Shown one piece after another: positions 44,684 through 62,435 of a stretch of 64,000 nucleotides of DNA (the first letter of the stretch is position 1; every line of letters starts with the position of its first letter). A program made the translations under genes and the position numbers. A model generated the notes under the pieces. That model saw only the letters and a list, made by a program, of their open reading frames with translations, made no database searches and was not told the DNA's origin. The stretch comes from Polyangiales bacterium (GTDB lineage Bacteria; Myxococcota_A; Polyangia; Polyangiales; JADJQN01): positions 640,001 through 704,000 of the forward strand of contig CAXNJO010000002.1 of NCBI GenBank assembly GCA_964202905.1, in the 5' to 3' direction.

Positions 44684-45459
44684 AGGAACCGCCTCGCTCT
44701 CGACATCGCGTCGAGCTCCGTCTGCATGGCCTCGCGCACGCGCGCGTCGACGTCTTCCACGCGGCCGTCGTGAGGATCGATCGGCGGCAGCACGCGCGTC
44801 ACGATCTTCGTCGGCAGCGGGAGATAGCCGGGGAGCGGGCCCACCCAGAAGCCCCACGGCACGCTCCACGTGAGCGGCAGCACCTTGATCCGGCGGGCGC
44901 TCGCCACCCCCAGCCGGCGCGCGAGGGCGCGCCCCTCTGCGAAGATGACGAGCGCCTCGTGTCCGCCGACGCTGACGACGGGTACGATCGGCACACCCGC
45001 CTCGCGCGCGAGTTCGACGTAGCCCGTGCGCCCCGCGAACTCGATGCGGCCGCGGCGCCAGAAGCTGCGGCACGCGTCGTGATCGCCGCCCGGATAGACG
45101 GTGACGGCACAGCCCGCGCGCAGCGCCGCGAGGCCGCGCGCGTGGCTTGCGCGCAGCGCCCCCATCTTCGCGACGAAGCGCGCGACGCGCGCGGGATACA
45201 CCGAAAACATCGCGTCGTGCGCGAGCGTGCACAGGGGCGTCGTGCGGCCCGCGGTGTGGTACGCGGCGACCCACACGAGCGTGTCGGGGATCATCGCGGC
45301 CCCCGAGTGGTTGCCGACGAAGAGCACGGGGCGATCGGGCACCGCCGCGAGACCGTGCACCTCCGCGCGAAACCAACATCGCAACCAGCGCGCGGTGCGC
45401 GGCGCGTGCCGCGCGACGTACGCGGGATCGTAGGCGCCGACCTCCCCGAACTCCGTCAT
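44680..45459 (-). CDS. Lysophospholipid acyltransferase family protein (PlsC/DGAT-like)
   Basis: VLFVGNHSG, VYPGGD, GRTGYVELAREAGVPIVPV and PLPTKI. Confidence 0.88.
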   Translation of the reverse strand: MTEFGEVGAYDPAYVARHAPRTARWLRCWFRAEVHGLAAVPDRPVLFVGNHSGAAMIPDTLVWVAAYHTAGRTTPLCTLAHDAMFSVYPARVARFVAKMGALRASHARGLAALRAGCAVTVYPGGDHDACRSFWRRGRIEFAGRTGYVELAREAGVPIVPVVSVGGHEALVIFAEGRALARRLGVASARRIKVLPLTWSVPWGFWVGPLPGYLPLPTKIVTRVLPPIDPHDGRVEDVDARVREAMQTELDAMSRARRFL

Positions 45460-45779
45460 CGGTAGAAGTCCAGCGGCGGCCAGTCGGGCAGCGTCGCGCA
45501 CCAGGCGGCGAAGCCGACGAGGGTGACGAAGCGCGGGTCGAGATCGAGCGGATCGGGATAGCGGAACTGCTCGGCGTCACCCGCGAGCTCGACGAGCCGC
45601 GCGTGGTAGCCGGGCCAGCTCGTGAGCGAGACGAGATAAGGCGCCCAGCGCGTCTCGCCGTCGACGACCCGGCGCGCCTCGTCGCGCAGCAGCGCCAGCC
45701 CGCCGGGGTGCGATTGCAGGAGTTGCAGGTCGTAACCGAGGAAGGCGTCCTCGTGATAGACGCTGAGCAGGTGCCGCAC
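45456..45779 (-). CDS. Hypothetical protein (a coupled ATG at 45815 is separated from it by an in-frame TAG)
   Basis: It fills the gap in a translationally coupled operon and has coding-like composition. Confidence 0.6.
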   Translation of the reverse strand: MRHLLSVYHEDAFLGYDLQLLQSHPGGLALLRDEARRVVDGETRWAPYLVSLTSWPGYHARLVELAGDAEQFRYPDPLDLDPRFVTLVGFAAWCATLPDWPPLDFYR

Positions 45780-45811
45780 GATCTACGCGGGCCGCTCCTC
45801 GCGACCGCCGC

Positions 45812-46834
45812 TCATCGCATCCCTCCCGCGTCATGGGCCAGGCCGCGCCGGACGACGCCCACGAGATCCGGCCCGAGCAGCGACGAGAACGGCACGCCGC
45901 ACGCCTCGACGAAGACCTGCACGACGCGCGGCGCGAAGCGCGTGAAGCTCGCGAACGCACGCGGCTCCCACGTACCCGGCAGCGTGGATTTGAGCGCATC
46001 CAGGCGGCGCAAGTAATCCACGTGCGAGAGGCGCCGTTCCATCCAGTCGAACCGCATCGCGAGCGCACGCGACGCGCCCTCCGGGTGCGCGAGCCGATGC
46101 AGCGGCGCGAAGCCCACCGCGAGCGACGTGCCCTCCGCAGCGAGCGTCGCGGAGAGCGTATGCACGACGCTCCACCACACGCCCCACTGTTTCGTCCTGC
46201 GAAAGCGCAGCACGTCCATTAGCCCCCCGCATACGACACCCTCTTTCCAGATGGCGTTGATGACCGCGAAGCCAAGGATCGATTCGCCCTGCGCGAGGAG
46301 GAACATGCGCCGCGTTCCGTCGTCGACACTCGACCAGGGTCGATTGAGAAACACGATCTCGCGACCGACATCCGTCCGATCGATGGACTCGCGCGAGATG
46401 GCATCGAGTTGCTCACGCAGGCCTGCATCGAGTCCCGCGAGCGACACTTCGCGCAGCGCGAAGTCGTGCCGCGTCGCGTGGCGGAGGGCGCCGCGCACCG
46501 CCTTCGGCGGCTCGCGGAGCAACGCATCCGCGTCGAGCACGCGATCCTGCCCCATCGCTGCGGTGTGCAACCCTTCCCGCGCGCACGCCTCGGCGAACGG
46601 CGCACGCAGATAGAAGAGCATTGGTTTCCGCGCGACGCGCAGGAAGCGCCGCAACATCTCCGCGCGATCTCCGGGCGCGCACCAGGGCCCGCCGAGCGTC
46701 GCGTGCACGTCGCCGACGCGCCGATACGCCCAGCAGCCGAACGACGTCTCGAAGTGCGCGAGCCCCGGCGCGAGCGTCGCGCAGGCGATCAGATCGCCGT
46801 CGCCGAAGCGCTCGACGAACGCGCGTGCGCCCAT
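45812..46834 (-). CDS. DUF2156 / MprF C-terminal-like aminoacyl-tRNA-dependent transferase domain protein
   Basis: WAYRRVGDVHATLGGPWCAP, VRGALRHATR, ILGFAVINAI and MDVLRFR resemble the LPG-synthase C-terminal GNAT-like domain. Confidence 0.6.
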   Translation of the reverse strand: MGARAFVERFGDGDLIACATLAPGLAHFETSFGCWAYRRVGDVHATLGGPWCAPGDRAEMLRRFLRVARKPMLFYLRAPFAEACAREGLHTAAMGQDRVLDADALLREPPKAVRGALRHATRHDFALREVSLAGLDAGLREQLDAISRESIDRTDVGREIVFLNRPWSSVDDGTRRMFLLAQGESILGFAVINAIWKEGVVCGGLMDVLRFRRTKQWGVWWSVVHTLSATLAAEGTSLAVGFAPLHRLAHPEGASRALAMRFDWMERRLSHVDYLRRLDALKSTLPGTWEPRAFASFTRFAPRVVQVFVEACGVPFSSLLGPDLVGVVRRGLAHDAGGMR

Positions 46835-47769
46835 CAATCCGGCTCCGCGAGCACCTTCCGCACGATGTCGTCCTTCGAGACGAAGACGGGATGGAGCTCG
46901 CCGAGGTCGTAGTGATCGCCGAGCTCGAAGAGGCCGCCGCACACATCGTTGAGCGTGCACGCACCGCAGACATCCGCCTTCGGGTGCGTGAAGTCGGTCT
47001 GCCGGATCGTCCCCTTGTCGTCGAGGAAGTGCACGATGCGCTCCTCGCCCTTCACGATCTTGCGCGTCTCCGTGGAGCAGTGCGCGAACTCGGTCATGTA
47101 ACAGAGCGGCACGCGCTCGACGCGGAAAGAGCGGCCCGTGCGGTGCAGGTGGCGCATCGCGCGCGCGAGCGAGAGCTCGAAGTCGGCGAGGCGGTGCGCG
47201 GTGTCGCGGTTCGTCTCGGCGCGGCCCATCGACGGGTCGAGATTGTTCCACACGAAGTGGCGCAGGAAGGGGAAGCGCGCCGTCCAGCGCTTCACGTTCT
47301 CGTCGAGGTGATCGGCGTTGAACTTGTTGATGACGGTGTTGATGTTCACCGTCGCGCCGACGCGGCCGAGGTTCTCGAGCGCGTCCATCGCGAGCGCGTG
47401 GCTGCCTTTGACGCCCGTGAGGAAGTCCTCGAGGTCGGGGCGGCACGAGTGGATGCTCACGTGGAAGTGGCGCAGCCCCGCGTCGAGGTACGACTCGGCG
47501 ACGCCCGGCTTCGCGAGTCGCGAGCCGTTCGTGATCATGCGGACGTGCAGCCCCTTGGCGCAGGCGTAGCGCGTGATCTCGGGGATCAGCTCCGAGAGCG
47601 AGGGCTCACCGCCGGTGAGGATGATCCCGAAATAGCCGCGCGCGACGAAGTCGTCGACCTGTCGCTGCGCCGTCTCGAGGTCGAGCATGTAGCCCGACGA
47701 GGGATTCGAGCAGAAGCGGCAGTACTGGTTGCAGTGCCGCACGATCTGCATGTAACCGAGGTTCGCCAT
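46834..47769 (-). CDS. Radical SAM protein, HxsC-like
   Basis: CNQYCRFC, LTGGEP and ITNG; C-terminal VPLCY...CGACTLNDVCGG. Confidence 0.9.
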   Translation of the reverse strand: MANLGYMQIVRHCNQYCRFCSNPSSGYMLDLETAQRQVDDFVARGYFGIILTGGEPSLSELIPEITRYACAKGLHVRMITNGSRLAKPGVAESYLDAGLRHFHVSIHSCRPDLEDFLTGVKGSHALAMDALENLGRVGATVNINTVINKFNADHLDENVKRWTARFPFLRHFVWNNLDPSMGRAETNRDTAHRLADFELSLARAMRHLHRTGRSFRVERVPLCYMTEFAHCSTETRKIVKGEERIVHFLDDKGTIRQTDFTHPKADVCGACTLNDVCGGLFELGDHYDLGELHPVFVSKDDIVRKVLAEPD

Positions 47770-47787: not shown

Positions 47788-48930
47788 TCACCCGCGCTCG
47801 TCGTCGTCGCCGCGAACGTCGTCGCTCTGCGCGGGCGCGTCGCCCTCGAAGAGCGCCGGAAAGAGCGAGCGCAACGCCTCGCCGCTGAGCCGCTCACCGC
47901 GACCGACCTCGGCGACGGCCGGCACGCTGCGCCCGAGCATCGGCAACGCACGCCGCACCTTCGCGGGGGAAGGCTCGCTCGCCTCCGCACGGCGCGGCGC
48001 CCGCTCACCCGGCCCGACGAAGGCCGACGCGAGCGGATGCGCGCGCGTCTCCGCGGCCGGCGCGACGGCGGTGTCGCGCGGCGCGAGCTCGTCGCCGTCG
48101 AAGCGCGCGAGGTAGGCCACGTCGACGCCGGGGCACAGAGGCCGTAGCGCGCACGCGTCGCAAGCAGGCGCGAAGGCGCGCACGCCGTCGCCGAGCGCGT
48201 CGCCGGGGATCGCGTGGGCGCCATAGGGCCCGAGCAGGCACAGCGGCGCGCCTGCGACGAAGGCCGTCAGCCCGCGCGCGCGCGCCGCAGCGAGGGCGCG
48301 CACGGCGAAGGGCAGCGCGAGGCCGAGGCGCGGGTACACGCGATCGAAGCGCTCCTCCGCGCGCCCGGCGACGACGGGCACGGCGATGCACCAGGCCGCG
48401 ACGCCGCGGGCCACGACGAGCGCCGCGAGCGCGTCGAGCGCGCGGTAGTTCGAACGGGTGAGCACGGTCGCGACGACGACCTCGAGTCCGGCGGCGCGCG
48501 CCGCGGCGAGCGCGCGCAGCACGTCGTCGAAGCTGCCTGCGCGCCCCGTGTGGTAGTCGTGCACGGCCGCCTCGGCGCCCAGCAACGTCAGGTGCACGTC
48601 GGTGAGCCCTTGCTGCGCCAGCCGCTGCCAGCGCGATGCATCCATGAGATTCGACGCATTGCTCTGCACGCCGATCCGCGTGAAACCGAGCGTGCGCGCG
48701 GCGTCGACGCGCCCCTCGAGCGACGCGTCGAGCCCCGGCTCACCGCCGACGAAGCTCACCTCGTCGTGGGTCGCGCGGAGCGACGCGAGGGCCGCGCGCG
48801 CACCGTCCGCGTCGAGCGACTCGCGCGGCGCGAGTCCGTCCTGATCGCAGAACACGCACGCGTTCGTGCACGCCTGCGTGAGCGTGACGAGCCCGCGAGA
48901 CCGCGGCGCCGGAGGTGAGGAACTCGACAC
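47788..48930 (-). CDS. Radical SAM protein, HxsC-like; start uncertain
   Basis: CTNACVFC, FVGGEP and VQSN; APLCLL...CDACALRPLCPG. Confidence 0.88.
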   Translation of the reverse strand: MSSSSPPAPRSRGLVTLTQACTNACVFCDQDGLAPRESLDADGARAALASLRATHDEVSFVGGEPGLDASLEGRVDAARTLGFTRIGVQSNASNLMDASRWQRLAQQGLTDVHLTLLGAEAAVHDYHTGRAGSFDDVLRALAAARAAGLEVVVATVLTRSNYRALDALAALVVARGVAAWCIAVPVVAGRAEERFDRVYPRLGLALPFAVRALAAARARGLTAFVAGAPLCLLGPYGAHAIPGDALGDGVRAFAPACDACALRPLCPGVDVAYLARFDGDELAPRDTAVAPAAETRAHPLASAFVGPGERAPRRAEASEPSPAKVRRALPMLGRSVPAVAEVGRGERLSGEALRSLFPALFEGDAPAQSDDVRGDDDERG

Positions 48931-48997: not shown

Positions 48998-49924
48998 GTG
49001 GCGCTGCTCGACGTCATCCTCGGCTACGACTGCAACCTCGCTTGCGACTACTGCACGATCACGCCCGCGATGCGCGCGCGGGCGCTGACGACGGAGCAGG
49101 TCGTGCGCGAGCTCCGCGCGGGGCGGGACGCGGGCTTCGACGCCGTCTCGCTGACGGGCGGAGAGCCGACCATCCGCCGCGATCTGCTCGGCCTCGTGCG
49201 GGCCGCGCGGCAGCTCGGCTATGCGTCGATCAAGGTGCAATCGAACGGCCTGCTCTTCGCGCACGCGCCCAACGTGCAGCGCCTCGTCGAGGCGGGCGCG
49301 ACGCTGCTGCACGTCTCCATCCACACGCACGAGGCCACGCGCTACGACGCGCTCGTGCGCCGCGAGGGCAGCCATCCGCAGATGGTCGCGGGGCTGCGAA
49401 ACGCCGTCGCGACGGGCGCCGAGGTCGTCGCCGACCTCATCCTGAAGGCCGACACCCACGCCGCGCTGCCCGACGCGCTGCGGTGGGTGCACGCGCAGGG
49501 CGTGCGCGCCGCGCACCTCTGGTTCGTCTCCCTCACGGACGGAAACCGCGACAACGTCGCGTCGCTGCCCCGCATGGGCGAGACGCTGCCGGCGGTGCAC
49601 GAGGCGCTCGCGTACGCGCGCGAGTCCGGCATGGACGTGCGCTCGCTGCACATCCCGCGTTGCCTCCTCGGCGCCGATCACGGACACGCGTGGGACCCGG
49701 GCAGCGTGCGCGTGCGCGTCGTGACGCCGGAGGCGACCTTCGACCTCGCCGACAGCAAGCTCGCGGGCAGCGTGCACGTCGCGGCGTGCGAGGGCTGCAC
49801 GTTCCGCGCGGTGTGCCCCGGGATCCGCCGCGACTACCTCGAACACGTGGGCGACGCCGAGTTCGCCGCTGCGCGCGGACAGCCGGCGACCCATGCCGGA
49901 CGCGTGCGTCTGCCCGTGGCGTGA
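48998..49924 (+). CDS. Radical SAM protein, HxsC-like
   Basis: CNLACDYC, LTGGEPT and VQSNG; IPRCLL...CEGCTFRAVCPG. Confidence 0.9.
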   Translation: MALLDVILGYDCNLACDYCTITPAMRARALTTEQVVRELRAGRDAGFDAVSLTGGEPTIRRDLLGLVRAARQLGYASIKVQSNGLLFAHAPNVQRLVEAGATLLHVSIHTHEATRYDALVRREGSHPQMVAGLRNAVATGAEVVADLILKADTHAALPDALRWVHAQGVRAAHLWFVSLTDGNRDNVASLPRMGETLPAVHEALAYARESGMDVRSLHIPRCLLGADHGHAWDPGSVRVRVVTPEATFDLADSKLAGSVHVAACEGCTFRAVCPGIRRDYLEHVGDAEFAAARGQPATHAGRVRLPVA

Positions 49925-50001: not shown

Positions 50002-52369
50002 TCAGCGCGCGAGCGGCAGGCGGAACGGCACGGGCCGCACGCGGTCTCCCTCGTCGACGAGCCAGGGCGGCTCGGGTACGTCCTCGAGCTCGTAGAAGCC
50101 CCCGCAGAAGACGCGGTGCGGGCACGGGCCGCATTCTTCTTTGTGCACGCGCCGCTCCGCGAGGTAACCCGCGAGGTTCACGTCCTCGTTGTTCACGAAG
50201 ATCATGTGGCGGGAGAGCTTCGCGATGTCCCCGGCGAGGTAGCGCTCGTAGCCGGGCATGAAGCAGAACGGGAGGTTGATGACCTGGAAGCGGATGCGGT
50301 CCTTCCACGCGTCGATCACGCGCATCGCGATCTCCGCGGCCTCGCGCGTGTCGGGGTTCACCCAGCGCGTCGCGCGGCCGAAGGGCGTGAGGAACTGGAG
50401 GTTCAACCACCGCAGCCCGAGGTCGAAACAGAGCTGCGCGAGCGCCTCGAGCTTGCGGTGGTTCCCCTTCGTGAGGGTCACGTTCATCCCGAGCTCGAGC
50501 GTGTCTGGCGCGTGGCGCAGGCAGTTGCGGATGCCCGCGATCGTCTGGTCGAAGGCCTCGGCGACGCCGACCTGCTGCGCGTGCGTCTGCGCGTCGGGGC
50601 CATGCACGCTGAAGAGCAGCGTGGTCACGCCGCTCGTCGCGAGCTTCCGCGCGAAGTCGTCGTACGCGCAGAGCCGGCCGTTGGTCGTGACGTTGACGCG
50701 CTCGTAGCCGATCGCGCGCGCGTAGCGGACGAGCGGCACCAGCTCGGGGTTGAGCGTCGGCTCGCCACCGTCGAAGTCGACCATGGCGCACGCCCGGCGC
50801 GGCGGTACTTCGCGAGGTGCTCGCGCTGGCGCGTCGGGTGACCGTCGACCTGCGTGCGCGTGCCGACCGCACAGAACGTGCAGTGGTTGTTGCACACGTA
50901 GGTGACGTTCATGATCACCTTCTGCGGGCCCTCGCGTGGCGCGCAGCCGCTGGTCGAACGTCCACCGGAAGCGGCGCGAGCGCCTCGGGCGTGACGGCTC
51001 ATGTCGGGCTGGCGCGGGCACGCGTCTGGAAGCGCCGGCCCCCAGTCGTCGCACGACGGGGAGCGCGCGGCCGTGCGCGAGCTGCCGTGCCCGGCAGCGG
51101 CGTCGCGAACTGCACCGCGGGGAACGCGCCGTAGCGCTCGTAGAGATCGATGCGCGACGCGCGAGCGTCGCGTTGATCTCCTCGGCGCTCTCGCCGGGCA
51201 GCCCGATGATCCAGTGGATCAGCAGCGGCGACGCCCGCGGCCTGTGCGCGTTCTGCGCGGCGGCGTACGATGGCACGCGAGGTCGAGCCGCTTCTTCACG
51301 ACCTCCGTCACGACGCGCTGCGACGCCGCTCTCGGCGCTCACGCTCACCGTCGTCGACGCGGCCCGCGCATGCGCCCGAAGTGGCGCGGGCTCGAGGTAG
51401 TCGGCGCGCATGCCGTTCGGCACGTCGAAGCGCACGTCGAGCGCGTCGACGGCGTCGAGCACGGCTTCGAAGTGGCGCTCGCTCACGTTGACGAGCTCGT
51501 CGAGGACCTCGAGGCGCGTCGCCCCGTGCTACGCGACCACGAGCTGCTCGAGGTACGCGCGCAGGCGCGCCTCCGGAGTAGCGGCGCTGCGTCTTCGGGG
51601 CGCCGCGGCAGCGCGCTCCGGGTTCGAGCGAGCAGTGGACGCACGTGAACGGACAGCCGCGCGAGGTGACGAGCGGCAGCGTGCGACCGTCGATCGGGAA
51701 GGCCCAGCGCGCGCGTCCGAGGTTCTGGACCGTGCGCGCGCAGAAGGCGCTCGTACGCGGCCGAGATCGACGAGATCCCACGCGGGGAACGGCAGCGTGT
51801 CGAGCGAGGGGCGACGCGCCGCGGTGCGCGCCACAACGGACGCTCGCCGCGCGCGACGAAGGCCTCGAGCGAGCGCGGGCACCGTCACCTCCGCCTCGTA
51901 CTTCACCCACGCGGAGGCCTCCGGATAGGCCGCAAACAGCGCCTCTGCGGCGGCACTCGACGTAGTGCTGCCCGGACTGGTAGCAGTCCGCGAGCAGGCG
52001 CGGCGCCTCCGGCCACGCGTCGCGCAGGGCGGCGAGCACGTCGCCGAGCACGTCGTCCCGCGCGGGCGGGCGGTGGAACGGCGTCAGCGCGACGACGACG
52101 AGCGCGGGTGCCTCCGCGCCGAGCGCGGCGCGACACGCGGCGATCGTGTCGACCACGGGCGCGCCGAGGTGAAAGCGGCCGTCGTCCCGCGGCGCGAGCG
52201 TCGAGGAGGGCAAGGCGAAGGCATCGACGAGCGCGACGGGATGCCCCGCCTCGCGGAGCACCGCCGCGAGCTGCACGGCGCCGAGGTCGGAAAAATAAGG
52301 GTAATCGATGAAGTCGCGCGCGATGCTGGTGGGCGGGTGCACCACGAGGACGCGAGCATGGGGCGACAT
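50002..52369 (-). CDS. Cobalamin-binding radical SAM protein apparently fused to a second HxsC-like radical SAM domain; multiple frameshifts
   Basis: B12-domain-like start VLVVHPP...LGAVQLAAVLREAGHPVALVDA, then TSRGCPFTCVHC, VPNGMRAD and IIGLPGE. These are followed by VCNNHCTFC, FDGGEPT, TTNG and LPFCFM...CGPCPHRVFCGG. Confidence 0.8.
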
Positions 52370-52404
52370 CACCGACAGTCTATCGGATTGCCCGCGCCGC
52401 GAAT

Positions 52405-54282
52405 ATGATGACGGCAATGCTCACCGAAGAAGCGCACGCCGCAGGGGTCGCGGACAAAGTCCGCGGGCACGAAGAGGCCGCGCACGAGAAGCGCAACTGG
52501 GTGAGGCTCACCTACGACTGCAACAACCGCTGCGTGTTCTGCCTCGACTCCGACACGCACGATGGCGAGATGCGCGACCGCGAGGACGTGAAGCGCCAGA
52601 TCCTCGAGGGCCGCCGCAACGGGGCCGAGCGCCTGATCCTCTCGGGCGGCGAGCCGACGATGCACCCGGACTACGTCGCGTTCATCAAGCTCGGCGCGCT
52701 CGCCGGCTACAAGAAGGTCCAGACCGTCACGAACGGCCGGATGTTCATGTACGAGCCGTTCCTCAAGCGCTGCCTCGACGCGGGCCTCTCGGAGATCACG
52801 TTCAGCCTCCACGGCCCGAACGCGCGCATCCACGACGCGCTCGTCGGCGTGAAGGGCGCGTTCGACGAGGAGATGCGCGGCCTCGAGAACGTCTTCGCGG
52901 ACGGTCGCCCGATCGTCAACGTCGACATCGTCATCAACCGCGGGAACGTGAAGCAGCTCCCCGAGATGCTCCGCACCTTCTACGACAAGGGCGTGCGCGA
53001 GTTCGACCTGTTGCAGGTCGTGCCGTTCGGCCGCGCGTTCACCGAGGGACGCGACACGCTCTTCTACGACCTCGAGGCGATGCAGCCGTACCTGCGCGAG
53101 GCGCTCGAATTCTCACGACGCCCCGACGTGCACATCTGGATGAACCGCTTCCCGCCGAAGCACCTCGAGGGCTTCGAGCACCTCATCCAGGACCCGTACA
53201 AGCTCAACGACGAGGTGCGCGGCCGCAAAGAGGAGTTCGCGCGGCTGCTCGACGAGGGCGTCGCGCTCGATTGCCGCGACCCCGGACGCTGCCGCTACTG
53301 CTACCTCGAGCAGCTCTGCGACACGCTCGATCAGGTCCGCGCGACGGTCGCGGCCCAGCGCTTCGACGTCGTGCGCGTCGACACGGCGTGGGAGGCGCAG
53401 CAGGGCCCCGTCTTCGGCGGCGATCCCGCGAGCGCGCGGCGGGCACGCCACATGACGGACGATGCGGAGAGCCCCTCCGCAGGCACGAGCATCGCGGGCG
53501 ACGCGGAGGGCTCCCGGCGCGCGCTGCCCGAGCGCCGTCCCGATGGGCGCGTGGGTCTTCCACTCGCCGCGGGCCCGGCGCCGCGCACCGCCCCGACGCC
53601 GACCGAGCTCGTCGCCGCCGCGGGCGCCTCGACACTGCGCCTCGCCGCGCCGGACCTCGCGCGCGCGCTCGCGGAGCTGCCGCGCGTCCCGACGCCCGCA
53701 ACGCTCGAGCTCGAGCTCGACGACTACACGGGGCTCGCCGAGTCGCTCGCGGCGGACGGCACGCTCGAGGGCCGCAGCCTCGTCCGCGCGCGCGTGCACC
53801 GCAGCGCCGACGCGCGGGCGCTGCTCGCGCTGCCCTTCGACTTCGAGGTGCAGGTCGCGCTCACCGTCGAGACGACCGCGTGGCTGCGCACGCTCGCGGA
53901 CGCGCCGGCGCGCGTGTCGCTCGTGCAGCCGACGTACGAGCGCCTCACCGAGAGCCGCGAGAACGACGTCGATCTGCGCGCGTTCTTCGCGGAGTTCCCG
54001 TACGCCGTGCCCGTCGAGGGCGTGCCGGCGTGCGTCACCGGACGGGCCCCGCGCGACGAGCGCGCGACGCTGGACACCGCGATGATGGACGCCGCCGGGC
54101 GGCTCGAGATCTTCCGCTACACGCGGCGCTACATCCTCGCGCACTACCGCACGAAGTCGCTCCGCTGCGGCCCCTGCGCGCACTTCGCCCGCTGCGCGGG
54201 CATGCACGTCAACTACGTCCGCGCGCACGGCTACGAGCTGATGCAACCCATCACGACGACGACGGCCACCGACGCGGCGTGA
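52405..54282 (+). CDS. Radical SAM protein, long HxsC-like form
   Basis: CNNRCVFC, LSGGEPT, VTNG, an internal CxxxxxCxxCxxxxxC and C-terminal VPACV...CGPCAHFARCAG. Confidence 0.9.
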   Translation: MMTAMLTEEAHAAGVADKVRGHEEAAHEKRNWVRLTYDCNNRCVFCLDSDTHDGEMRDREDVKRQILEGRRNGAERLILSGGEPTMHPDYVAFIKLGALAGYKKVQTVTNGRMFMYEPFLKRCLDAGLSEITFSLHGPNARIHDALVGVKGAFDEEMRGLENVFADGRPIVNVDIVINRGNVKQLPEMLRTFYDKGVREFDLLQVVPFGRAFTEGRDTLFYDLEAMQPYLREALEFSRRPDVHIWMNRFPPKHLEGFEHLIQDPYKLNDEVRGRKEEFARLLDEGVALDCRDPGRCRYCYLEQLCDTLDQVRATVAAQRFDVVRVDTAWEAQQGPVFGGDPASARRARHMTDDAESPSAGTSIAGDAEGSRRALPERRPDGRVGLPLAAGPAPRTAPTPTELVAAAGASTLRLAAPDLARALAELPRVPTPATLELELDDYTGLAESLAADGTLEGRSLVRARVHRSADARALLALPFDFEVQVALTVETTAWLRTLADAPARVSLVQPTYERLTESRENDVDLRAFFAEFPYAVPVEGVPACVTGRAPRDERATLDTAMMDAAGRLEIFRYTRRYILAHYRTKSLRCGPCAHFARCAGMHVNYVRAHGYELMQPITTTTATDAA

Positions 54283-54391: not shown

Positions 54392-55480
54392 TCAATACAC
54401 GCCGTTGGAGAGCTCGACGATGTAGCCCGCACACGCGAGCGGCGCGGACGGCTTGCGACGCACGCGCACGAAGTAGTCGGCGCTCTGATCGCCGCAGACG
54501 TTCGCCCCCGGGACCGGCGACGGCGCGCACGGGCACTCGCCCGTCGAGCCCGGGCCAGTGCCGGAGAGGAAATCCGTGAAGAACGAGAAGTCCTGATAGC
54601 CCGTGTCCGCGCAGCCCATCGGGAGCACGCCGCACCCGCCGCGGAACACGGTGAACTCGAACGCTGAATCGGGATTCATCAGGAACTGCACGCGCACGTG
54701 GAGCGCGTCGCAGCTCGTGTCTGCGGTGTCCACCCCGCGGAAGCGGTACCAGACCTCGCGCGCCGCCGGGAGGGCGTTGCCCGTGACCAGCTGCATCTGC
54801 CCCGTGTCGGCGAGCTCGCCGAGGTCCTGCGCACCGGCGCAATCCGCCGCGACTCCGTCGGCCGGGACCGCGGCGCACTCGCAGCCCGTGTCGGCGCGCG
54901 CGTCGAGATCGAACTGCCCCGGCGGACAACCGCACGCGCCCGAGAGGCAGATCCCCTCACCGGGCGCGCAGAGCACGGAGGGCGCGGCGTCGTCGGTGCC
55001 GCCGCTGCAGTCGTCGTCGAGCGCGTTGCAGACCTCCGGTCGCCCGGGCGCGATCGCGGGGTTCGTCTCGTCGCAGTCCGTCGCCGCGGTCACGCCGTCG
55101 CCGTCGATGTCGCGGTCCCGCGGCACGCAGTAGCGCGCGCGGCAGAGGTCGGCGGGGTCCGGGCAGCCGCCCGCCGGCGTGCAGGCGTCGTACGGCACGC
55201 ACGTCCCGCGCTCGCAGACCTCGAACCCCATGCAGACGACCCCGCGGCACGGATCCGCGGGTCCCATGTCCACCGGCGAGGCCGCGTCGTCTGCGGCGTC
55301 CCGCGACGCGTCGCGCGGCCCCCCTTCGGCCAACGCCATGTCGCGTGGCGCACCGCCCGCATCGCCGCCGTCCCCGGCGCCGCTCGCGCACGCCGCCAGG
55401 CCGGTGAGGGCCGCGACGAGCAGACCGAGGGCCCCTCGACGTGGGGACGAAGCCGCGGGGTGCAGTGCGCGTGTCCTCAT
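54392..55480 (-). CDS. Cys-rich lipoprotein with DxDGDG...DCD...EVCN-DDDC (MopE-like putative metal-binding) motif
   Basis: Lipobox GLAAC and [37 protein letters not shown]. Confidence 0.8.
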
Positions 55481-55562: not shown

Positions 55563-55853
55563 TCACCAGCTGCCGTGCGAACCGTGCGAGCCGTGCGAGC
55601 CGTGCGAGCCGTGCGAGCCGTGCGAGCCGTGCGAGCCGTGCGAGCCGTGCGAGCCGTGCGAGCAGTGCTGCCCGCTTCGCTGCGCGTCGCCGGGATCACC
55701 CTTGCCCCCCTCGTCCGCCGCAGCGAGCGCGCGCGCCGAGACCTCGTGCTGGGTGTCGGAGAGGGTTCCCGTCACGTCGGCGCGGAAAGAAGGGAGGGAC
55801 TCGCCGTCCTCCGCCGAATCGTCGTCGTTGCCGTTGCGTCCGGGTCCTGCCAT
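55563..55853 (-). CDS. hxsA: His-Xaa-Ser repeat precursor peptide
   Basis: 96 aa with an acidic leader followed by HCS(HGS)10W. A GGAG RBS lies 7 nt before the ATG, and the gene sits directly downstream of the HxsB-like rSAM. Confidence 0.9.
55569..55667. repeat. 9-bp tandem repeat (CGAGCCGTG) x11 encoding the His-Xaa-Ser core on the minus strand
   Basis: Counted directly: 8 perfect units and 3 variant units. Confidence 0.97.
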
Positions 55854-55928
55854 GTCGATGCTCCGCGAAGGTGGGGGGGCAATTGTAGGTCGAGCGAGGC
55901 CGCGCTGTCACGCGGTCGCGAAAATAAC

Positions 55929-57443
55929 TCAGGGCGCGGTGGCGGCGCCCTGCAGGAAGTGGTCGCGGCTGCGAACGGTCGTCCACCGCTGCAGCACCGC
56001 CATCGTCGCCGGGTCGCCCTCCGCGAGCTTGCCGAAGAGGTAGTCCTGGATGCCCTTGTGCACCGCGCACAAGGAGCTGAGGCGCATCGATCCCCAGATG
56101 TGGCCGAGCGCTTTGTGGCTGTGCACGGGCGCGACGCCGCAGTACGGGTTGTACGTGCAATCCACGCAGTCCGGCTGGCTGTCGCGCTGCGACGCGATCA
56201 CGAGGGCGCGCACCGTCGCGTGGCCCGTGATGTCGCGGTAACGGCTCGTGCGGACGTCGCCGAGGAGGAAGGTGTCGTCCCCGGTCTCGTGCAGCATGCG
56301 GCCCTCGTCGCACGTGAAGATGCGGCCGTCGTAGCTGTAGGCGAGCTGACCGATGCCCGCGCCGCCCGGGCTGCGGATGTCGAGGAAGTTCGGGTCCTCG
56401 CCCGCGAGGATCTTGGTGAGGAAGATCGCGGCGTAACGCTCGAGAATCTGCACGCCCTGCTGGTTCAGCTGGAGCATGTAGTCGGTCGCCTGCCGGTAGA
56501 AGTCGAGGTACTCGCTGCGCGGGTACTCGACGCGCGCGCCGGTCTTCTCGACGAAGCCGAACGGGTCGATCGGGCGCAGGAAGAGGGCCTTGCAGCCGAG
56601 GGCGACGTAGGTGTCGACGACCTCCTTCCAGCGGGGGAGCGTTTCGCGCGTCGTCGTGAGCAGCGCCTCGACGTGGTAGAGCGTCGGGTCGAGGCCCATC
56701 TCGGCGTAGGCCTCGTTGATCCGGGCGATCCAGCGCGTCGCGGCCTTGTGCGACGAGAGCCCCGGCAGCTTTCGCTGCTTGTCGTGCAGGTGCTCGGGGC
56801 CGTCGATGCTCGTGCAGATCTGCACCTTGTGCGCGAGCAGGAAGGCGAGCTTCTCCTCGTCCATCAGGGAGAGGTTCGAGACCATCGTGAACTCGAGCTG
56901 CTTGCCGACGTCTTCGTTCTTCTGCTTCGCGTAGGTGATCGCGTGCTTGACGACCTCGAAGTTCACGAGGGGCTCGCCGCCTTGGAACTCGATCGTGATC
57001 GACGGGCTGGTCGAGCGGAGGATGAAGTCGATCGCGCGCTCGGCCGTCTCGCGCGACATGTCCGTGTGCACGGCCTCCATGTCGGCACGCGACGCGTGGC
57101 AGTACACGCACGTCTCGTTGCAGCGGAGCGTGACGACGAGGATGTGGAGGTTCGGGCCGAGGTGGAGGAAGGACTTCCGCGCGCGCACGCGGGCGATGGC
57201 CTTCTGCACGTCGTACTCGGCGCGGACGAAGTTCGCGTCGCGGAGGCGCGCGTGAAGCGGCTCGTCCGCCTTCACCTCGCCGCGCGCGAAGCGGCCGAAC
57301 TCGTCGTCCGAGAGGAGCAGCCAGTTCCCCTCGAGGTTCGTGATCAGGATCTTCTCGCCGATGCGCCGATGCCGGAAAAACGCCGGATAGCGCGTGTCGA
57401 GGCGGGCGCCGGGGCCGACGAGCGCGCGGAGATCGACCGTCAC
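55929..57443 (-). CDS. hxsB: His-Xaa-Ser system radical SAM/SPASM maturase HxsB
   Basis: [51 protein letters not shown] and [15 protein letters not shown] overlap with the upstream gene; lies between hxsD-like genes and the HxS peptide. Confidence 0.9.
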
Positions 57444-57661
57444 GACCGCCCCCCACGCTCGCGGATCGTCGTGCCGAGCGCGTAGTTGGCGAGCTCGCGC
57501 GCGATCTGCGTCGCGCGGGCCTCCGACTTCGCCGTCACGCGCACCACCCAGTGGGTCGGCTCCTCGCGCAGCTCGAACTCCGCGAAGCGCGCGTAGGTCT
57601 TCACGGCCGCGTCGACGGCCGTCCCCGCGTAGAGCTCGCGGTGCAGGCGCAGCTCGGTCAC
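57440..57661 (-). CDS. Small HxsD-like protein
   Basis: LHRELYAGTAVDAAVKTY...ELANYAL parallels the neighbouring HxsD; GTGA-coupled on both sides. Confidence 0.72.
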   Translation of the reverse strand: MTELRLHRELYAGTAVDAAVKTYARFAEFELREEPTHWVVRVTAKSEARATQIARELANYALGTTIRERGGRS

Positions 57662-58167
57662 GGCTCGCCCCCGGGCTCATCGCCGGACGGTGCGGCGGCG
57701 CCCTCGGCGGGCGCGACCTTCTTTTTGTACTTCTCTTCCCAGCTCATCGCGATGCCGAGCGGATCCTCGAAGGACTCGTCGCCGAAGTCGAACCCGGCGA
57801 GGTCGTCGAGCGAGGGCGCGCCCATGGCCGCGGAGATCGCCTGCGACGTGACCATCTCGATGACGGCGCGGTTGTCCTGCGCGATCTGCTGGCGCCACGC
57901 CGCCGAGAGGAGCTCGTTCGAGAACTCGCCCACGAACGCGCGCAGCACGGCTTCGTCCGCGCCCGCTTTGCGGGGCGCGAGCGTCACGCGGACCGTGTGC
58001 GCATCGGGCTTGTCGAGCAGCACGAAGCAGCGGTCGAGGAAGACGTACGCGGACGCGTAGACCGCTGACAGCGGGTAGAGCGTGAGGTCGACGCGGAGGT
58101 GCACCGCGCCGGACACGAGGTCGGCGGTGACGAGCTCCGAAGGGAGGGCTTCGAGGGGAGAGGACAT
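57658..58167 (-). CDS. hxsD: His-Xaa-Ser system protein HxsD with acidic C-terminal extension
   Basis: VDLTLYPLSAVYASAYVFLDRCFVLL...FVGEFSNELL...DDLAGFDFGDESFEDPLGIAMSWEEKY; located upstream of hxsB. Confidence 0.82.
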   Translation of the reverse strand: MSSPLEALPSELVTADLVSGAVHLRVDLTLYPLSAVYASAYVFLDRCFVLLDKPDAHTVRVTLAPRKAGADEAVLRAFVGEFSNELLSAAWRQQIAQDNRAVIEMVTSQAISAAMGAPSLDDLAGFDFGDESFEDPLGIAMSWEEKYKKKVAPAEGAAAPSGDEPGGEP

Positions 58168-58215: not shown

Positions 58216-60534
58216 TCAGCGCGTGAGGGTGAGCTGGTATTGCGCGGCGCTCGTCCCGCTGGTGGTGCGGAAAACACGAACGTAGATGGGGCTAGGCCAG
58301 GTGACGTTGCGGCTCGACCACTGACGGACCCCGGGGATCGACTGGTCGTCGACGAACGCCCACTCTTGCAGGCTCGTGGCGGTGCCGCCGCTGCCGCAGC
58401 CGAGGGGCGCGGCGGGGCAGCCGCTGGTCACCTCGAAGCGGAACGCGGAGCCGTCGTTGCGCGTGAACCGGATGCGCGGCGTGCCGCCGCCGTTGGCGCC
58501 GAGGGGCGGGAAGGATGCGAAGAAGTAGTCGCTGGCGCCCACGCTCGCGATGCTGCCCGCGAGGGTGTTGACCGCGCCGCCGACGCTGATGGAGCCGAGG
58601 GAGGTCGCGGTGCCGCACGACGCGCCGTTGCCCTCGTCGACGACCTCGCAGCCGTTCGCGTAGGTGCCGTCGACGTCGACCGCGTTCGCGCTGCACGCGC
58701 CGATCGAGCACCCCGCGCCGCCGCCACAGACCGTGGACGACACATTCGCCGTGGCCGGACAGAGCGACGCGATGGGCGCGTTGTCCGTGACGCCGTCGCA
58801 GTTGTCGTCGACGCCGTTGCACGCCTCGAAGGCGCTCATGCCCGCCATGCACATCACCGGCACGCCCGCGCTGCACATCGCGACGCTGACGCTGCAGAGG
58901 CCGAGGCCGCAGGTCTGCGTGCCCGCGGGCGCATCGGTGCACGCGCCCGCCGTCATGCCGTTGCAGGTCCCGACCGTCGGGCTCTGACAGACGTCGTTGC
59001 AATCGATTTGCACTTCGGTCCCGGCCGGACGCGAGGGGCACAAGTCCGCGGGCGCGAGGCAGGCGCCGATCCCGTTGCAGGCCGCGAGGTCGCCATCGAC
59101 GGCCGCGCGACGCCGACAGGCGCCGAGGCCATCGAAGCCGCCGTAGTAGTCGGAGCACGAGAAGCCGGGGCACTCTCCGTCCGGATCGCGGCCGAGCGCG
59201 ACGGGCGTGCACGTCCCGCGCGTGTCCGGGAGGTCGCAGCGCTCGCACTGCCCCGAGCAGGCCGACGTGCAGCAGACGCCGTCCACGCAGGAATTGCCGT
59301 CCTGACAGTCCTGCACACGCGCGCATCCGCCGCCCGGCGGCCGGTCGAGCGCGCAGACGCCGAGCTCGCAGTGCGCGGACGCGACGCACTCGGCGTCGGC
59401 CACGCACGCGGTCGGGCACGTCGGCGCGGACTGGGCGACCTCGCCCGTGCAGTAGACGGGCAGGTAGAGCCCGCAATCGCGCGCGAGGACCGAGGGGACG
59501 CACGCCGAGTCGTCGGGGACACCCGCGATCACGACGCAGGAGTTCGACTCGCAGGCCGTGTCACCGCGCGTGCCCTGGCAGGTCGACGCGGAGTCGCACG
59601 CCGCGCCCGTGCCGCCGCCGCAGTCCATCGGCGTGCGGCAGCACTGGCCCGAGTCGCAGCAGTAGCCGTTGTCGCAGTGGCCGGACGCGCAGTCGGAGTC
59701 CTCGTCGCACGTGCCGCCGTTCGACTCGTCGTTGAGGCAGGTCATGCCGTCGCAGTGCGCGGCCGCGATGCAGCGCTCGTCGCCCGTGTTCGGGCCCGTC
59801 GAGGGGCAGTCGAGCGCGCAGCGGCTGCCGAGCCCGCCGCCGAGCTCGCAGCTGAACAGCCCGCACGACGTGAGCGTGCCGCTCGTGCACGCGGCGTCCA
59901 CGCACATCGCGCTGCGGATGTCCTCGTAGGTGCCGGGCATCGCGACGTTGGGCCGACACACGCCCGAGACGCAGTCCGTCATGGTCCCATCGGTCGTCCC
60001 GTCGCAGTCGTCGTCCGTGCCGTTGCAGCGCTCGGGCTCGCCGGGGTTCACGTCGGCGCTCGCGTCGTCGCAGTCGCGACCCATGCAACCGACGCCCTGA
60101 CCGTAGGCGTCACGGTCCTCGTCGACGCAACAGGTCGCGCCGAGCGGCGCGCAGACGTACTCGTCGACCTCGAGGGCCGAGCTCAGCGTGCAGCCGAAGT
60201 TGCCGGGGCAGGAGGGCAGATCGGGGATGCAGCCCGGCAGGCATGCACGACCGCCCGTCGCGAGCGCGGCGCAGAACGAACCGGGGTTGCAGTCACCGTT
60301 CGTCTCGCACGCCTCGCAGGTGCCGGCGCGCGTGGTCGGCCCCATGTCCACCCCGGCATCGGCGCCGAGATCCGCGCCGCCGTCCATCTCGCCGAGGTCG
60401 GCCATGCCACCGTCCGCCCCGCCGTCGCCGGGCCGCACCGGCGGCGCCGCATTGCTGGCGCACGCGCCGAGCGAGAGCAGCGCGGCCGAGAGCAGACCCC
60501 GCACGAGCGGTTTATTGAGGACGGGCATCCGCAT
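58216..60534 (-). CDS. Large Cys-rich lipoprotein with MopE-like and Dickkopf-like Cys repeats
   Basis: Lipobox SLGAC; DEDRDAYG...DCDD...ERCNGTDDDCDG, CDEDSDCASGHC and EACNGVDDNCDG. Confidence 0.82.
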   Translation of the reverse strand: MRMPVLNKPLVRGLLSAALLSLGACASNAAPPVRPGDGGADGGMADLGEMDGGADLGADAGVDMGPTTRAGTCEACETNGDCNPGSFCAALATGGRACLPGCIPDLPSCPGNFGCTLSSALEVDEYVCAPLGATCCVDEDRDAYGQGVGCMGRDCDDASADVNPGEPERCNGTDDDCDGTTDGTMTDCVSGVCRPNVAMPGTYEDIRSAMCVDAACTSGTLTSCGLFSCELGGGLGSRCALDCPSTGPNTGDERCIAAAHCDGMTCLNDESNGGTCDEDSDCASGHCDNGYCCDSGQCCRTPMDCGGGTGAACDSASTCQGTRGDTACESNSCVVIAGVPDDSACVPSVLARDCGLYLPVYCTGEVAQSAPTCPTACVADAECVASAHCELGVCALDRPPGGGCARVQDCQDGNSCVDGVCCTSACSGQCERCDLPDTRGTCTPVALGRDPDGECPGFSCSDYYGGFDGLGACRRRAAVDGDLAACNGIGACLAPADLCPSRPAGTEVQIDCNDVCQSPTVGTCNGMTAGACTDAPAGTQTCGLGLCSVSVAMCSAGVPVMCMAGMSAFEACNGVDDNCDGVTDNAPIASLCPATANVSSTVCGGGAGCSIGACSANAVDVDGTYANGCEVVDEGNGASCGTATSLGSISVGGAVNTLAGSIASVGASDYFFASFPPLGANGGGTPRIRFTRNDGSAFRFEVTSGCPAAPLGCGSGGTATSLQEWAFVDDQSIPGVRQWSSRNVTWPSPIYVRVFRTTSGTSAAQYQLTLTR

Positions 60535-60587: not shown

Positions 60588-62435
60588 CTAGACAAGGATC
60601 ACGTGCGCGCGCTTCCAGCGGATCAACCACTGATTCGAGGTCGCAGGACCGACCTCGCGCCGCTCGAGGACGTCGAGCGGGATCGCCAGCGCATCGGCCG
60701 CACGCGCGACGTGCGCCGCGGCCGCCCCGGCGTCGTCGTTGCGGTGATGCTCGAAGCCCGCGCGCGACCGCTCGGCGCGGCGGGCGTGGGCGGGCGTACG
60801 CGCGAGACCGAACGCGACGTTGTCGACGACGGTGATCGTGCCACCCGGCCGCAGCGCGGGGAGCAACTGCGAGAGCGCCGCGTCCGGATCGGCGAGGTGG
60901 TTCCAGCTGCGGAGCACGAGGACGTGATCGAACGACGCAGGCTCGAGCGCCGCCGTCTCCGCGGTGCCCTCGCGCACCTCGCCCCAGGGTCGACGGACGC
61001 GGAGCCGGGCGCACGCGGCGGCGTCCGGCTCGAGGCCGACCCACGCGATCCGGCCCTCTCGCGCGAGCGGCGCGAGCACGTCGTCGTAGGGCCCCTCGCC
61101 GCAGCCGACGTCGAGCACGCGCCCGCCGAGGGTCGAGAGCAGCGCGCGCACGAGGGCGTCGTCACGGCCGAACACATCCTCGAGGCGCGGCTCGAAGAGC
61201 CCCGTGCACGCATCCCGCGCGCTGCAACCCGTGCAGAGCGCGCTGCGCGAGAGCTGCACGAGATCCCGCGCGAAATCGTCGGGCGCGGCCTTGCGGGAGA
61301 CGTCCACGTACACCTGTCCGAGCCTGTGCTTGAGGTGCTCGAGCTCGACGTCCGCGAAGTCGCGCGTCTCGGTGCGGTAGCGCGCGACGCGCCCCTGGTG
61401 GCGCACGAAGAGGTGGCGACCGCGATCCCACGGCGTGACGCCCTGCGCGCCGTCGCGCAGCGGACAATGCGCGGGATCGGCCTCCGTCGGCACGAGCGCC
61501 TCGAGCACGTAGTGGAACGAGTTCGAGCGCGCGCGCGGCGCGGGCGGTCGCAGCTCGTCGGCGCCGAAGGCCTCGAGATAGCCGCGAAAGAGGCCCGGAC
61601 ACGGCCCCCGCAGCGGGCAGTCGCTGCAGACCTCTTCGGGCTGGATCTTCGCGACGTCGTCGACGGGGAAGAAGTCCGGCTCGCCGACCTCGACCATCGT
61701 CGCGAAGCGATCGGTGCGGAGATCGTCGTAGTCACCCTCGAGCCCCGGCAACAGGCAGAGCGGGAGCCCGTCGTGCGTGAAATGCGGCCCGGCGGCCCCG
61801 CGCGCGCGCACGCCATCACGACCATGGAAGATGGCATCTCTGACCCGCGAAGCGACGTGCGCGACGCGCGGCACGACGTGCTCGAAGAGCTTCTCGCCGC
61901 CGCCCTTCGGTTGCGTCATCGAGAACTTCAGCGTCAGCCGCTCGAGGGGGAGCAGCAGATCGACGAGCGGGCGGAGGTGATCGACGTTCTGGCGCGTGAC
62001 GACGCAGTTGATCGTCAGCTCGATCCCGGGCCGCGCGTGCACGTTGCGGATCGCGCGGAGCGCCTCGTCGAAGCCGTCCGCGCGCACGAGCGCGTTGTGC
62101 ACGCGCGCGCTCCCCGCGTGCAGCGACATGTACACGTAGCGCAGCCGCGCGGCGATCAGTTGCTCGAGCACGTCGTCGTAGGCGAGCAGCCGCCCGTTCG
62201 TGACGAGGCCGAGGTCCATGTCGAGCGACGCGACGTGCGTGGCCCAGCGCATCAGCTCGGGGCGGATCGTCACCTCGCCGCCCGAGAGCACGACCATCGA
62301 GTGCCCGAGCTCCTTCGCGCGGCGGATCTTGCGGTGGGTCTCGGACTCGTCGCCCTCGATGTGGCGCACGTCGAGCGTGTGGCAGAACGTGCAGTGCTCG
62401 TTGCAGCCGTAGCCGACCTTGATGAGCGCTTTCAT
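60588..62435 (-). CDS. Radical SAM (HxsC-like) protein fused to class I SAM-dependent methyltransferase
   Basis: CNEHCTFC, LSGGE, VTNG and LPLCLL...CSDCPLRGPCPG. The C-terminal part has VLDVGCGEG, SFDHVL and LRPGGTI. Confidence 0.9.
   Translation of the reverse strand: MKALIKVGYGCNEHCTFCHTLDVRHIEGDESETHRKIRRAKELGHSMVVLSGGEVTIRPELMRWATHVASLDMDLGLVTNGRLLAYDDVLEQLIAARLRYVYMSLHAGSARVHNALVRADGFDEALRAIRNVHARPGIELTINCVVTRQNVDHLRPLVDLLLPLERLTLKFSMTQPKGGGEKLFEHVVPRVAHVASRVRDAIFHGRDGVRARGAAGPHFTHDGLPLCLLPGLEGDYDDLRTDRFATMVEVGEPDFFPVDDVAKIQPEEVCSDCPLRGPCPGLFRGYLEAFGADELRPPAPRARSNSFHYVLEALVPTEADPAHCPLRDGAQGVTPWDRGRHLFVRHQGRVARYRTETRDFADVELEHLKHRLGQVYVDVSRKAAPDDFARDLVQLSRSALCTGCSARDACTGLFEPRLEDVFGRDDALVRALLSTLGGRVLDVGCGEGPYDDVLAPLAREGRIAWVGLEPDAAACARLRVRRPWGEVREGTAETAALEPASFDHVLVLRSWNHLADPDAALSQLLPALRPGGTITVVDNVAFGLARTPAHARRAERSRAGFEHHRNDDAGAAAAHVARAADALAIPLDVLERREVGPATSNQWLIRWKRAHVILV

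What the first reader, a model, noticed from the sequence alone, without database searches (positions are those of the whole stretch)
55563..55853. Precursor with a perfect HCS-(HGS)10-W core encoded by a 9-bp tandem repeat
Seen: a 62-aa acidic leader, eleven consecutive His-Xaa-Ser triplets and a terminal Trp, with the DNA units almost identical. Established: several rSAM/SPASM enzymes crosslink aromatic-X-X three-residue motifs (triceptide cyclophanes). Inference: HxsB may install up to eleven His-to-Ser crosslinks, giving a rigid poly-imidazole rod. The homogeneous repeat should make core length vary by slippage.
Basis: partly seen in the sequence, partly recalled or inferred. Interest (0 to 1): 0.82.

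Follow-up and report, generated by a model that had tools for sequence, protein, structure and literature searches.

The report
Myxobacterial His-Gly-Ser repeat peptide precursor
This small gene encodes a peptide of eleven histidine-X-serine triplets, of a catalogued type found in about a third of the myxobacterial genomes searched; it travels with a team of radical SAM enzymes that likely modify it heavily before it is likely exported, and it is an untested relative of a recently described E. coli anti-phage system.

Summary
It is not unique. It passes NCBIfam HxsA4 (59.3 vs 55 bits) beside HxsB, HxsD and HxsD-like; HxsC4 lies on another contig. HxsA4 is over cut-off in 97 of 301 phylum genomes. 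Of 39 complete relatives, 38 start HCS and 39 end in Trp, with 5-64 triplets. Slippage is poorly supported: only 2 of 39 arrays have 8 or more identical units in a row, and counts stay fixed within lineages while codons differ. HxsB alone is unlikely to make the product: five more radical SAM genes and a twin-arginine protein occur in 17-20 of 22 precursor genomes and 0 of 39 others. The only HXS chemistry in print is +8 Da, not the -2 Da of a cyclophane, and HxsB fails the triceptide-maturase models. Best reading: a multi-enzyme-modified, likely exported imidazole polymer acting at the envelope. Chemistry and function are untested. The scan has noted this system before on other DNA.

The parts
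55563..55853 (-). hxsA4 precursor gene, 96 aa
   Evidence: Translation; NF038313 59.3 bits, cut-off 55
55728..55796 (-). Conserved leader motif, residues 20-42 (LPxF...L...REISxRA type), likely enzyme-recognition sequence
   Evidence: Alignment of 26 precursors: P21 invariant; L20, F23, L31 at 90% or more; no hydrophobic stretch
55566..55667 (-). Core: HCS-(HGS)10-W on a 9-bp tandem array (55569-55667) with eight identical units
   Evidence: family pattern in 39 complete relatives
55882..55911 (-). Sigma70-like promoter GTGACA-N18-TACAAT, 28 nt before the ATG; GGAG at 55861-55864
   Evidence: the strict motif occurs before 12 of 46 precursors (own included), 0.012 in shuffles, and at 3 sites in the whole genome; motif defined after seeing these sequences
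55929..57443 (-). hxsB, radical SAM/SPASM maturase with an N-terminal three-strand, three-helix domain
   Evidence: TIGR03978 552.7 vs 370; model; best fold match 5WHY/5WGG
57440..57661 (-). HxsD-like protein
   Evidence: NF038315 79.3 vs 41
57658..58167 (-). hxsD with a conserved acidic C-terminal extension
   Evidence: TIGR03976 55.1 vs 50; alignment
60588..62435 (-). HxsC-like radical SAM domain fused to a SAM methyltransferase (F5)
   Evidence: Pfam; 18 of 22 precursor genomes, 0 of 39 others
52405..54282 (+). HxsC-like radical SAM enzyme (F8)
   Evidence: 20 of 22, 0 of 39
50002..52378 (-). Two-domain radical SAM gene: cobalamin-type domain plus HxsC-like domain (F10); frameshifted in this assembly
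   Evidence: tblastn with intact relatives; weak ApyD and B12 hits in the G001 copy; 19 of 22, 0 of 39; short-read contigs lack the extra bases
48998..49924 (+). HxsC-like radical SAM enzyme (F11), accessory
   Evidence: 9 of 22, 0 of 39
47788..48906 (-). HxsC-like radical SAM enzyme (F3)
   Evidence: present in 13 of 24 regions compared; genome-wide co-occurrence not run
46834..47769 (-). HxsC-like radical SAM enzyme (F6)
   Evidence: 19 of 22, 0 of 39; 99 of 102 precursor genomes in the phylum sample
54392..55480 (-). Cys-rich protein with MopE-type repeat (F9), accessory neighbour
   Evidence: PF11617; 5 of 24 regions
58216..60534 (-). Cys-rich protein with MopE-type repeats (F12), accessory neighbour
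   Evidence: PF11617; 4 of 24 regions

Best explanation
The gene encodes an HxsA4-type precursor with a soluble acidic leader and an HCS-(HGS)10-W core, which HxsB likely binds by the leader and, with five or more co-inherited radical SAM enzymes, likely converts into a crosslinked and methylated imidazole polymer that is likely exported with a twin-arginine partner and would act at the cell envelope. Shown: the ORF, its family, leader and end-residue conservation, the promoter-like site, the co-inheritance and the twin-arginine motif. Inferred: leader binding by HxsB; oxidative His/Ser chemistry on each triplet; one-carbon additions by the methyltransferase-fused and cobalamin-type enzymes (+C/-4H equals +CH2 with loss of 6H); single-site chemistry at the invariant Cys and Trp; leader removal; export. 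The most likely role, by homology to E. coli HXS, is a barrier to phage DNA entry. That step is the weakest.
For: HxsA4, HxsB, HxsD, HxsD-like and HxsC4 all pass their cut-offs in this genome. In 39 complete relatives, 601 of 602 triplets after the first are HGS although the codons differ. Among 61 genomes (22 with a sequence-confirmed precursor): HxsB 20 of 22 and 1 of 39; F6 19, F8 20, F5 18, HxsC4 17, F10 19 of 22, each 0 of 39. The twin-arginine protein is in 18 of 22 by single query, 20 of 22 with a profile, 0 of 39 by single query, with RR invariant in 17 of 17 aligned. In the 301-genome phylum sample, 99 have both precursor and F6, 3 precursor only, 7 F6 only, 192 neither; 6 of those 7 hold an HGS array on a second look. 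The HxsB model matches 5WHY/5WGG best (E 6e-17). HxsB-HxsA4 complex prediction: weak support, 0.58 against best control 0.00, 19% contact agreement, partner pLDDT 46; scores of 0.60 or under were reached by 18 of 157 solved pairs and by both mismatches that passed, and like leader-enzyme complexes are solved. In E. coli, HxsB, C and D are all needed for processing, export and defence, and each repeat is essential (PMC13128918).
Against: No modification, export or activity was measured here. The core has no Lys or Arg, whereas the E. coli model relies on basic repeats binding DNA. There is no signal peptide or peptidoglycan-binding domain. No canonical HxsC passes TIGR03977 (best 91.6 vs 267.9 bits). 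The neighbourhoods are not defence islands: 11 of 141 neighbours hit PADLOC models, all through generic kinase, radical SAM or cyclase domains. G034 and G047 hold precursor and HxsB but none of the five enzymes, and G033 and G043 lack a detected HxsB. Kin are not independent, so the counts overstate. The enzymes could act on another substrate. One contig in run X3 has a one-base loss in the leader.
Confidence: 0.45

Rival explanations
1. One reading: HxsB alone installs up to eleven His-to-Ser three-residue crosslinks, and this rigid rod is the product.
For: His-C2 to C-beta links (HaaB, YhhB) and Phe to Ser C-beta links (MscB) are known. Repeated modification by one enzyme is known (TvgB). 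HxsB is the adjacent SPASM-type enzyme, with weak predicted binding. In E. coli HxsA, residues 23-47 were not seen by MS, which leaves crosslinks open.
Against: HxsB is far below the triceptide-maturase cut-offs. The E. coli shift is +8 Da and needs HxsC and HxsD. Five more enzymes are tightly co-inherited. The crosslink remains plausible as a first step (about 0.4, my estimate).
Confidence: 0.12
2. The modified peptide is a metal-binding polymer or metallophore (Cu, Ni, Zn) for the envelope, not a defence effector.
For: Eleven His and one Cys, neutral core. Proteins with the MopE-type putative metal-binding repeat flank the gene here and recur at related loci. No defence-island context.
Against: No metal transporter or TonB receptor among Pfam hits of 141 neighbours. 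No background frequency was taken for MopE repeats. The homologous machinery serves defence in E. coli.
Confidence: 0.2
3. The array is a multi-core precursor: each His-Gly-Ser unit is turned into a small molecule or cofactor, possibly loaded on the twin-arginine protein.
For: Many enzymes for one monotonous substrate; counts range 5-64. Accessory oxygenase, halogenase-like, UbiA and prenyltransferase-like genes at some loci.
Against: Counts are held within lineages (11 and 11; 15 in three; 16 in 7 of 8). Unique end residues are conserved. No protease family recurs among the neighbours. E. coli HxsA works as a whole protein.
Confidence: 0.12
4. The repeat is a non-coding tandem repeat, an assembly artefact, or is read in another frame such as (CEP)10 on the plus strand.
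For: All six frames run through the array without a stop; the assembly has frameshift errors nearby.
Against: Leader and core are conserved as protein while codons differ. Short-read contigs hold the same 9-bp cycle without mismatch. A conserved promoter-like site precedes it.
Confidence: 0.01

Closest known systems
NCBIfam type-4 His-Xaa-Ser set: HxsA4 (NF038313), HxsC4 (NF038332), HxsD-like (NF038315), with HxsB (TIGR03978) and HxsD (TIGR03976)
   Same: All five models pass their cut-offs in this genome.
   Different: HxsC4 lies on contig C1, not beside the precursor. The models do not name F3, F5, F6, F8, F10, F11 or the twin-arginine protein. No paper on HxsA4 was found.
HXS anti-phage system HxsD-HxsB-HxsC-HxsA (Li et al., Nat Commun 2026, PMC13128918; read: abstract, introduction, results, discussion, first part of methods; supplements not seen)
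   Same: His-x-Ser repeats, HxsB (37% identical to a plasmid copy), HxsD, HxsC-like enzymes with the same C-terminal CxxCxxxxxCxG motif.
   Different: No signal peptide, no peptidoglycan-binding domain, no basic residues in the core, 11 repeats against 5, no canonical HxsC, many extra enzymes. The paper does not mention Myxococcota or HxsA4.
Triceptides (HaaB, YhhB, MscB, XncB, OscB; passages of review PMC11002830)
   Same: Aromatic-X-X motif with His at position 1 and a C-beta-bearing residue at position 3; a SPASM-type enzyme next door.
   Different: HxsB scores 43-55 bits on the triceptide-maturase models (cut-offs 310-450). The known HXS mass shift is +8 Da.
TvgA/TvgB poly-cyclopropylglycine peptide (PMC9062424; abstract, outline and passages)
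   Same: A precursor of short repeats modified repeatedly by a radical SAM enzyme.
   Different: Different repeat (TVGG), one radical SAM enzyme, different chemistry.

Membership tests
HxsA4 / type-4 His-Xaa-Ser set | Precursor passes NF038313 | tested here: met
   59.3 vs 55 bits
HxsA4 / type-4 His-Xaa-Ser set | HxsB, HxsD and HxsD-like genes adjacent | tested here: met
   552.7/370, 55.1/50, 79.3/41 bits
HxsA4 / type-4 His-Xaa-Ser set | HxsC4 present | tested here: met
   G000:C1:32344-33387, 618.4 vs 500 bits; on another contig
Canonical HXS anti-phage system | Canonical HxsC (TIGR03977) beside HxsB | tested here: not met
   Best of 17 matches in the genome 91.6 vs 267.9 bits; a plasmid HxsC control scores 390
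Canonical HXS anti-phage system | HxsA with signal peptide and peptidoglycan-binding domain | tested here: not met
   Leader hydropathy maximum -0.03; no such Pfam domain. Two plasmid HXS loci also have short precursors without that domain but with hydrophobic N-termini
Canonical HXS anti-phage system | Repeats enriched in basic residues | tested here: not met
   0 Lys or Arg in the core
Canonical HXS anti-phage system | +8 Da modification, export, block of phage DNA entry | not testable with these tools
   Needs MS, fractionation and phage assays
Triceptides | Aromatic-X-X motif in the core | tested here: met
   Eleven His-x-Ser; precedents
Triceptides | Maturase in a cyclophane-forming family (XyeB, GrrM/OscB, FxsB, YhhB, AmcB) | tested here: not met
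   46/450, 47.6/310, 43.2/370, 54.6/445, 47.5/425 bits
Triceptides | Aromatic carbon to C-beta crosslink, -2 Da each | not testable with these tools
   Needs MS/MS and NMR
Slippage-variable repeat locus | Long run of identical units | tested here: met
   Eight identical 9-mers, 82-nt perfect stretch
Slippage-variable repeat locus | Homogeneous units kept in relatives | tested here: not met
   2 of 39 complete arrays have a run of 8 or more; median longest run 12.5% of units
Slippage-variable repeat locus | Count varies within the population | tested here: inconclusive
   Only contigs were available and none spans the array; depth ratios 6.0, 3.2 and about 4.8 against 5.8 expected

The most novel reading that the evidence does not exclude
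About a third of myxobacteria build a length-controlled, end-capped poly-imidazole polymer from a (His-Gly-Ser)n peptide with an assembly line of six to ten radical SAM enzymes, and export it by hitch-hiking on a dedicated twin-arginine protein of no known family, to form an envelope barrier. That would be a peptide class with new per-repeat chemistry, and its uniform substrate would be the simplest handle on the unexplained +8 Da HXS reaction.
Probability: 0.3. Interest if true: 0.8.

Novelty: new variant of a known kind. Interest (0 to 1): 0.5.

Why it matters
The E. coli HXS study could not reconstitute the chemistry: HxsA was insoluble alone and the enzymes were below detection (PMC13128918). 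This precursor is small and hydrophilic, with a conserved leader and identical repeats, so a mass ladder would show the per-triplet chemistry and let each enzyme be assigned. The system is common in Myxococcota (97 of 301 genomes over cut-off), and I found no paper on it. This copy is an ordinary member of the family, with a slightly short and unusually homogeneous array.

Tried and rejected
Repeat-number variation from reads: only Logan contigs were served, none spans the array, and depth ratios are noisy; inconclusive. Expression: no RNA holder listed, which is no evidence either way. Fold of the twin-arginine protein: best Z 6.5, rmsd 5.3, 105 aligned, none at Z 8 or more among 48,161 chains; Atlas hits 0.75 only; no Pfam or NCBIfam family. 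HxsD profile against solved structures: best E 0.12. Homology between this leader and the hydrophobic, pilin-like leaders of other phyla: median -1.1 bits against -2.2 shuffled, 4 of 69 above 5 bits against 0 of 1380; not established. A shared promoter for the enzyme genes: the strict motif occurs in neither cluster region except before hxsA4. Defence-island context: not found among 141 of 146 candidate neighbours (proteins of 100-900 aa within 9 kb, core families excluded, five long ones left out for size). Haft and Basu 2011 is not held and is cited only through PMC13128918 and PMC9062424. Many database precursors show only 3-4 triplets; I treated these as likely short-read collapse and left them out of the count, and low counts among the 39 may have the same cause. 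Paper searches for a description of HxsA4 or a myxobacterial HXS system found none; subscription journals and the supplements of PMC13128918 were not seen and may list such loci. F3 was not searched genome-wide.

Full report
Observation. The ORF at 55563-55853 (minus strand) is as described: a 62-residue acidic leader, HCS, ten HGS, Trp, stop. The array is the best-scoring of 35 tandem-repeat rows in the window and the only run of more than three His-x-Ser triplets in the genome. Eight of the eleven 9-bp units are identical. A sigma70-like site GTGACA-N18-TACAAT lies 28 nt upstream. The same strict motif precedes 12 of 46 precursors, own included, against 0.012 in shuffles, and occurs only 3 times in the genome. 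I defined the motif after seeing these sequences.

Family. The peptide passes NCBIfam HxsA4; the three genes upstream pass HxsB, HxsD-like and HxsD; HxsC4 lies on contig C1. No protein passes canonical HxsC. Relatives named are mostly Polyangia and other Myxococcota. HxsA4 is over cut-off in 20 of 61 close genomes and 97 of 301 phylum genomes. The scan has noted this system before, in other genomes and in this one; those notes are leads, not support.

Anatomy. Among 39 complete precursors with this leader type (own copy and three congeneric copies included; one truncated copy dropped), counts run from 5 to 64 with median 14; 38 begin HCS, 39 end in Trp, and 601 of 602 later triplets are HGS. 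The leader keeps an LPxF...L...REISxRA motif about 43 residues before the core and has no hydrophobic stretch. So the 'perfect' core is the family norm.

Slippage. Only 2 of 39 arrays have eight or more identical units in a row; most alternate synonymous codons. Counts are stable within lineages while unit patterns differ: this genome and its congener G001 both have 11, three species of genus g29 have 15, and 7 of 8 loci of family f36 have 16. Between lineages and tandem paralogues counts differ, so expansion does happen. The contigs laid do not span the array; the collapsed 39-nt unit has depth ratios of 6.0, 3.2 and about 4.8, against 5.8 expected for 11 triplets. Variation within the population is untested. 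Short-read collapse may explain the lowest counts.

Partners. In 24 regions compared, the same radical SAM families recur around the precursor in shuffled order. Across 61 genomes, 22 have a sequence-confirmed precursor. F6, F8, F5, HxsC4 and F10 occur in 19, 20, 18, 17 and 19 of them and in 0 of the other 39; two of these matches, in G007, are weak (41% and 34%). HxsB occurs in 20 of 22 and 1 of 39, F11 in 9 of 22. In the phylum sample 99 genomes have both precursor and F6, 3 only the precursor, 7 only F6, 192 neither; 6 of the 7 hold an HGS array, often at a contig end. Kin are not independent, but presence is patchy within several families and the genes still match. A 186-residue protein with an invariant twin-arginine motif (17 of 17) follows the same pattern and has no known family. 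G034 and G047 are exceptions that lack the set. The HxsC-like enzymes share a C-terminal CxxCxxxxxCxG motif with canonical HxsC but are only 20-31% identical to it.

What is known. In E. coli, HxsA has a signal peptide, five basic repeats and a peptidoglycan-binding domain; HxsB, C and D are all needed for N-terminal processing; one repeat gains +8 Da (+C/-4H); HxsC binds HxsD; the mature protein delays phage DNA entry (PMC13128918). The paper mentions neither cyclophanes nor Myxococcota. Triceptide enzymes link His C2 or Phe to the C-beta two residues on (passages of PMC11002830), and TvgB modifies many repeats of one peptide (abstract of PMC9062424). HxsB scores far below the triceptide models and better, though still below cut-off, on thioether-forming maturases. 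Its model has an N-terminal three-strand, three-helix domain, the topology of a leader-binding RRE by recall, and matches 5WHY/5WGG best, then anSME, TigE and ChlB. The HxsB-HxsA4 prediction gave weak support: 0.58 against a best control of 0.00, 19% contact agreement, partner pLDDT 46; such low passes are often wrong, and like complexes are solved.

Mechanism. I infer that HxsB binds the leader and oxidises each triplet, plausibly linking His to Ser, and that the other enzymes add one-carbon units and treat the unique Cys and Trp. The E. coli shift equals a methyl group plus loss of six hydrogens, and the locus has a methyltransferase fusion and a cobalamin-type domain. As the precursor lacks an export signal while canonical and other-phylum precursors have hydrophobic N-termini, the twin-arginine protein is the likely carrier. 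A phage-entry barrier is the most likely role by homology, but the core is not basic and the loci are not defence islands; metal binding is the main rival. None of these steps was measured.

Verdict. A real, ordinary member of a catalogued but, in the papers I could search, undescribed branch of the HXS family. The value lies in the system: a uniform, hydrophilic substrate and a tightly co-inherited enzyme set that make the open HXS chemistry testable. Interest 0.5.

Noticed in passing
G000:C1:20651-33387 (L090): A second piece of the system on another contig: HxsC4, a double radical SAM enzyme, two more radical SAM genes, the twin-arginine protein, a WelO5-like halogenase, a JmjC protein, a UbiA protein and a prenyltransferase-like unknown (Atlas lead, PTase_Orf2 on 11% of a cluster at 0.91; in 6 of 22 precursor genomes, 0 of 39 others).
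   Followed up: partly
window 50002-52378: The two-domain radical SAM gene is frameshifted several times; contigs of two or three runs lack the same single bases, so these are likely assembly errors.
   Followed up: yes
window 43263-46837: A split HemN-like radical SAM gene, an acyltransferase, a 107-aa unknown and an MprF C-terminal-like gene continue the block on the minus strand; they did not cluster with genes at the other loci.
   Followed up: partly
window about 23800, 26600-27800, 39200-40600, 41750-43240: Repeated copies of an element of over 1 kb, transposase-like by recall and untested; a short duplicate of the HemN-like gene end sits at 40594-40740.
   Followed up: no
L069:9908-10741, L088:9926-10720, L010: Precursors with 60, 64 and 37 triplets in mixed synonymous codons; tandem precursor pairs of unequal length in L013 (16, 13) and L063 (13, 18).
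   Followed up: partly
L004, L015 (G037, G047): A subtype ending HGQW with a different leader and a different radical SAM gene next door; G037 carries both subtypes.
   Followed up: no
P0002-P0121, L081, L089: His-x-Ser precursors of Omnitrophota, Patescibacteria, Elusimicrobia and one archaeon have FLxxEEG leaders; 65 of 69 such leaders have a hydrophobic stretch, against 0 of 31 of the myxobacterial type.
   Followed up: partly
window 55705, 55825, 55872: Contigs differ from the window: a one-base loss in the leader (X3, one contig), a six-base in-frame insertion in the leader (X2) and one extra base in the 5' C-run (X1).
   Followed up: no
L031, L038, L042, L043, L048, L054, L055: A 4HBT-type thioesterase gene lies at or near the F5 gene in 7 of 24 regions; it is not in this window's cluster.
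   Followed up: no
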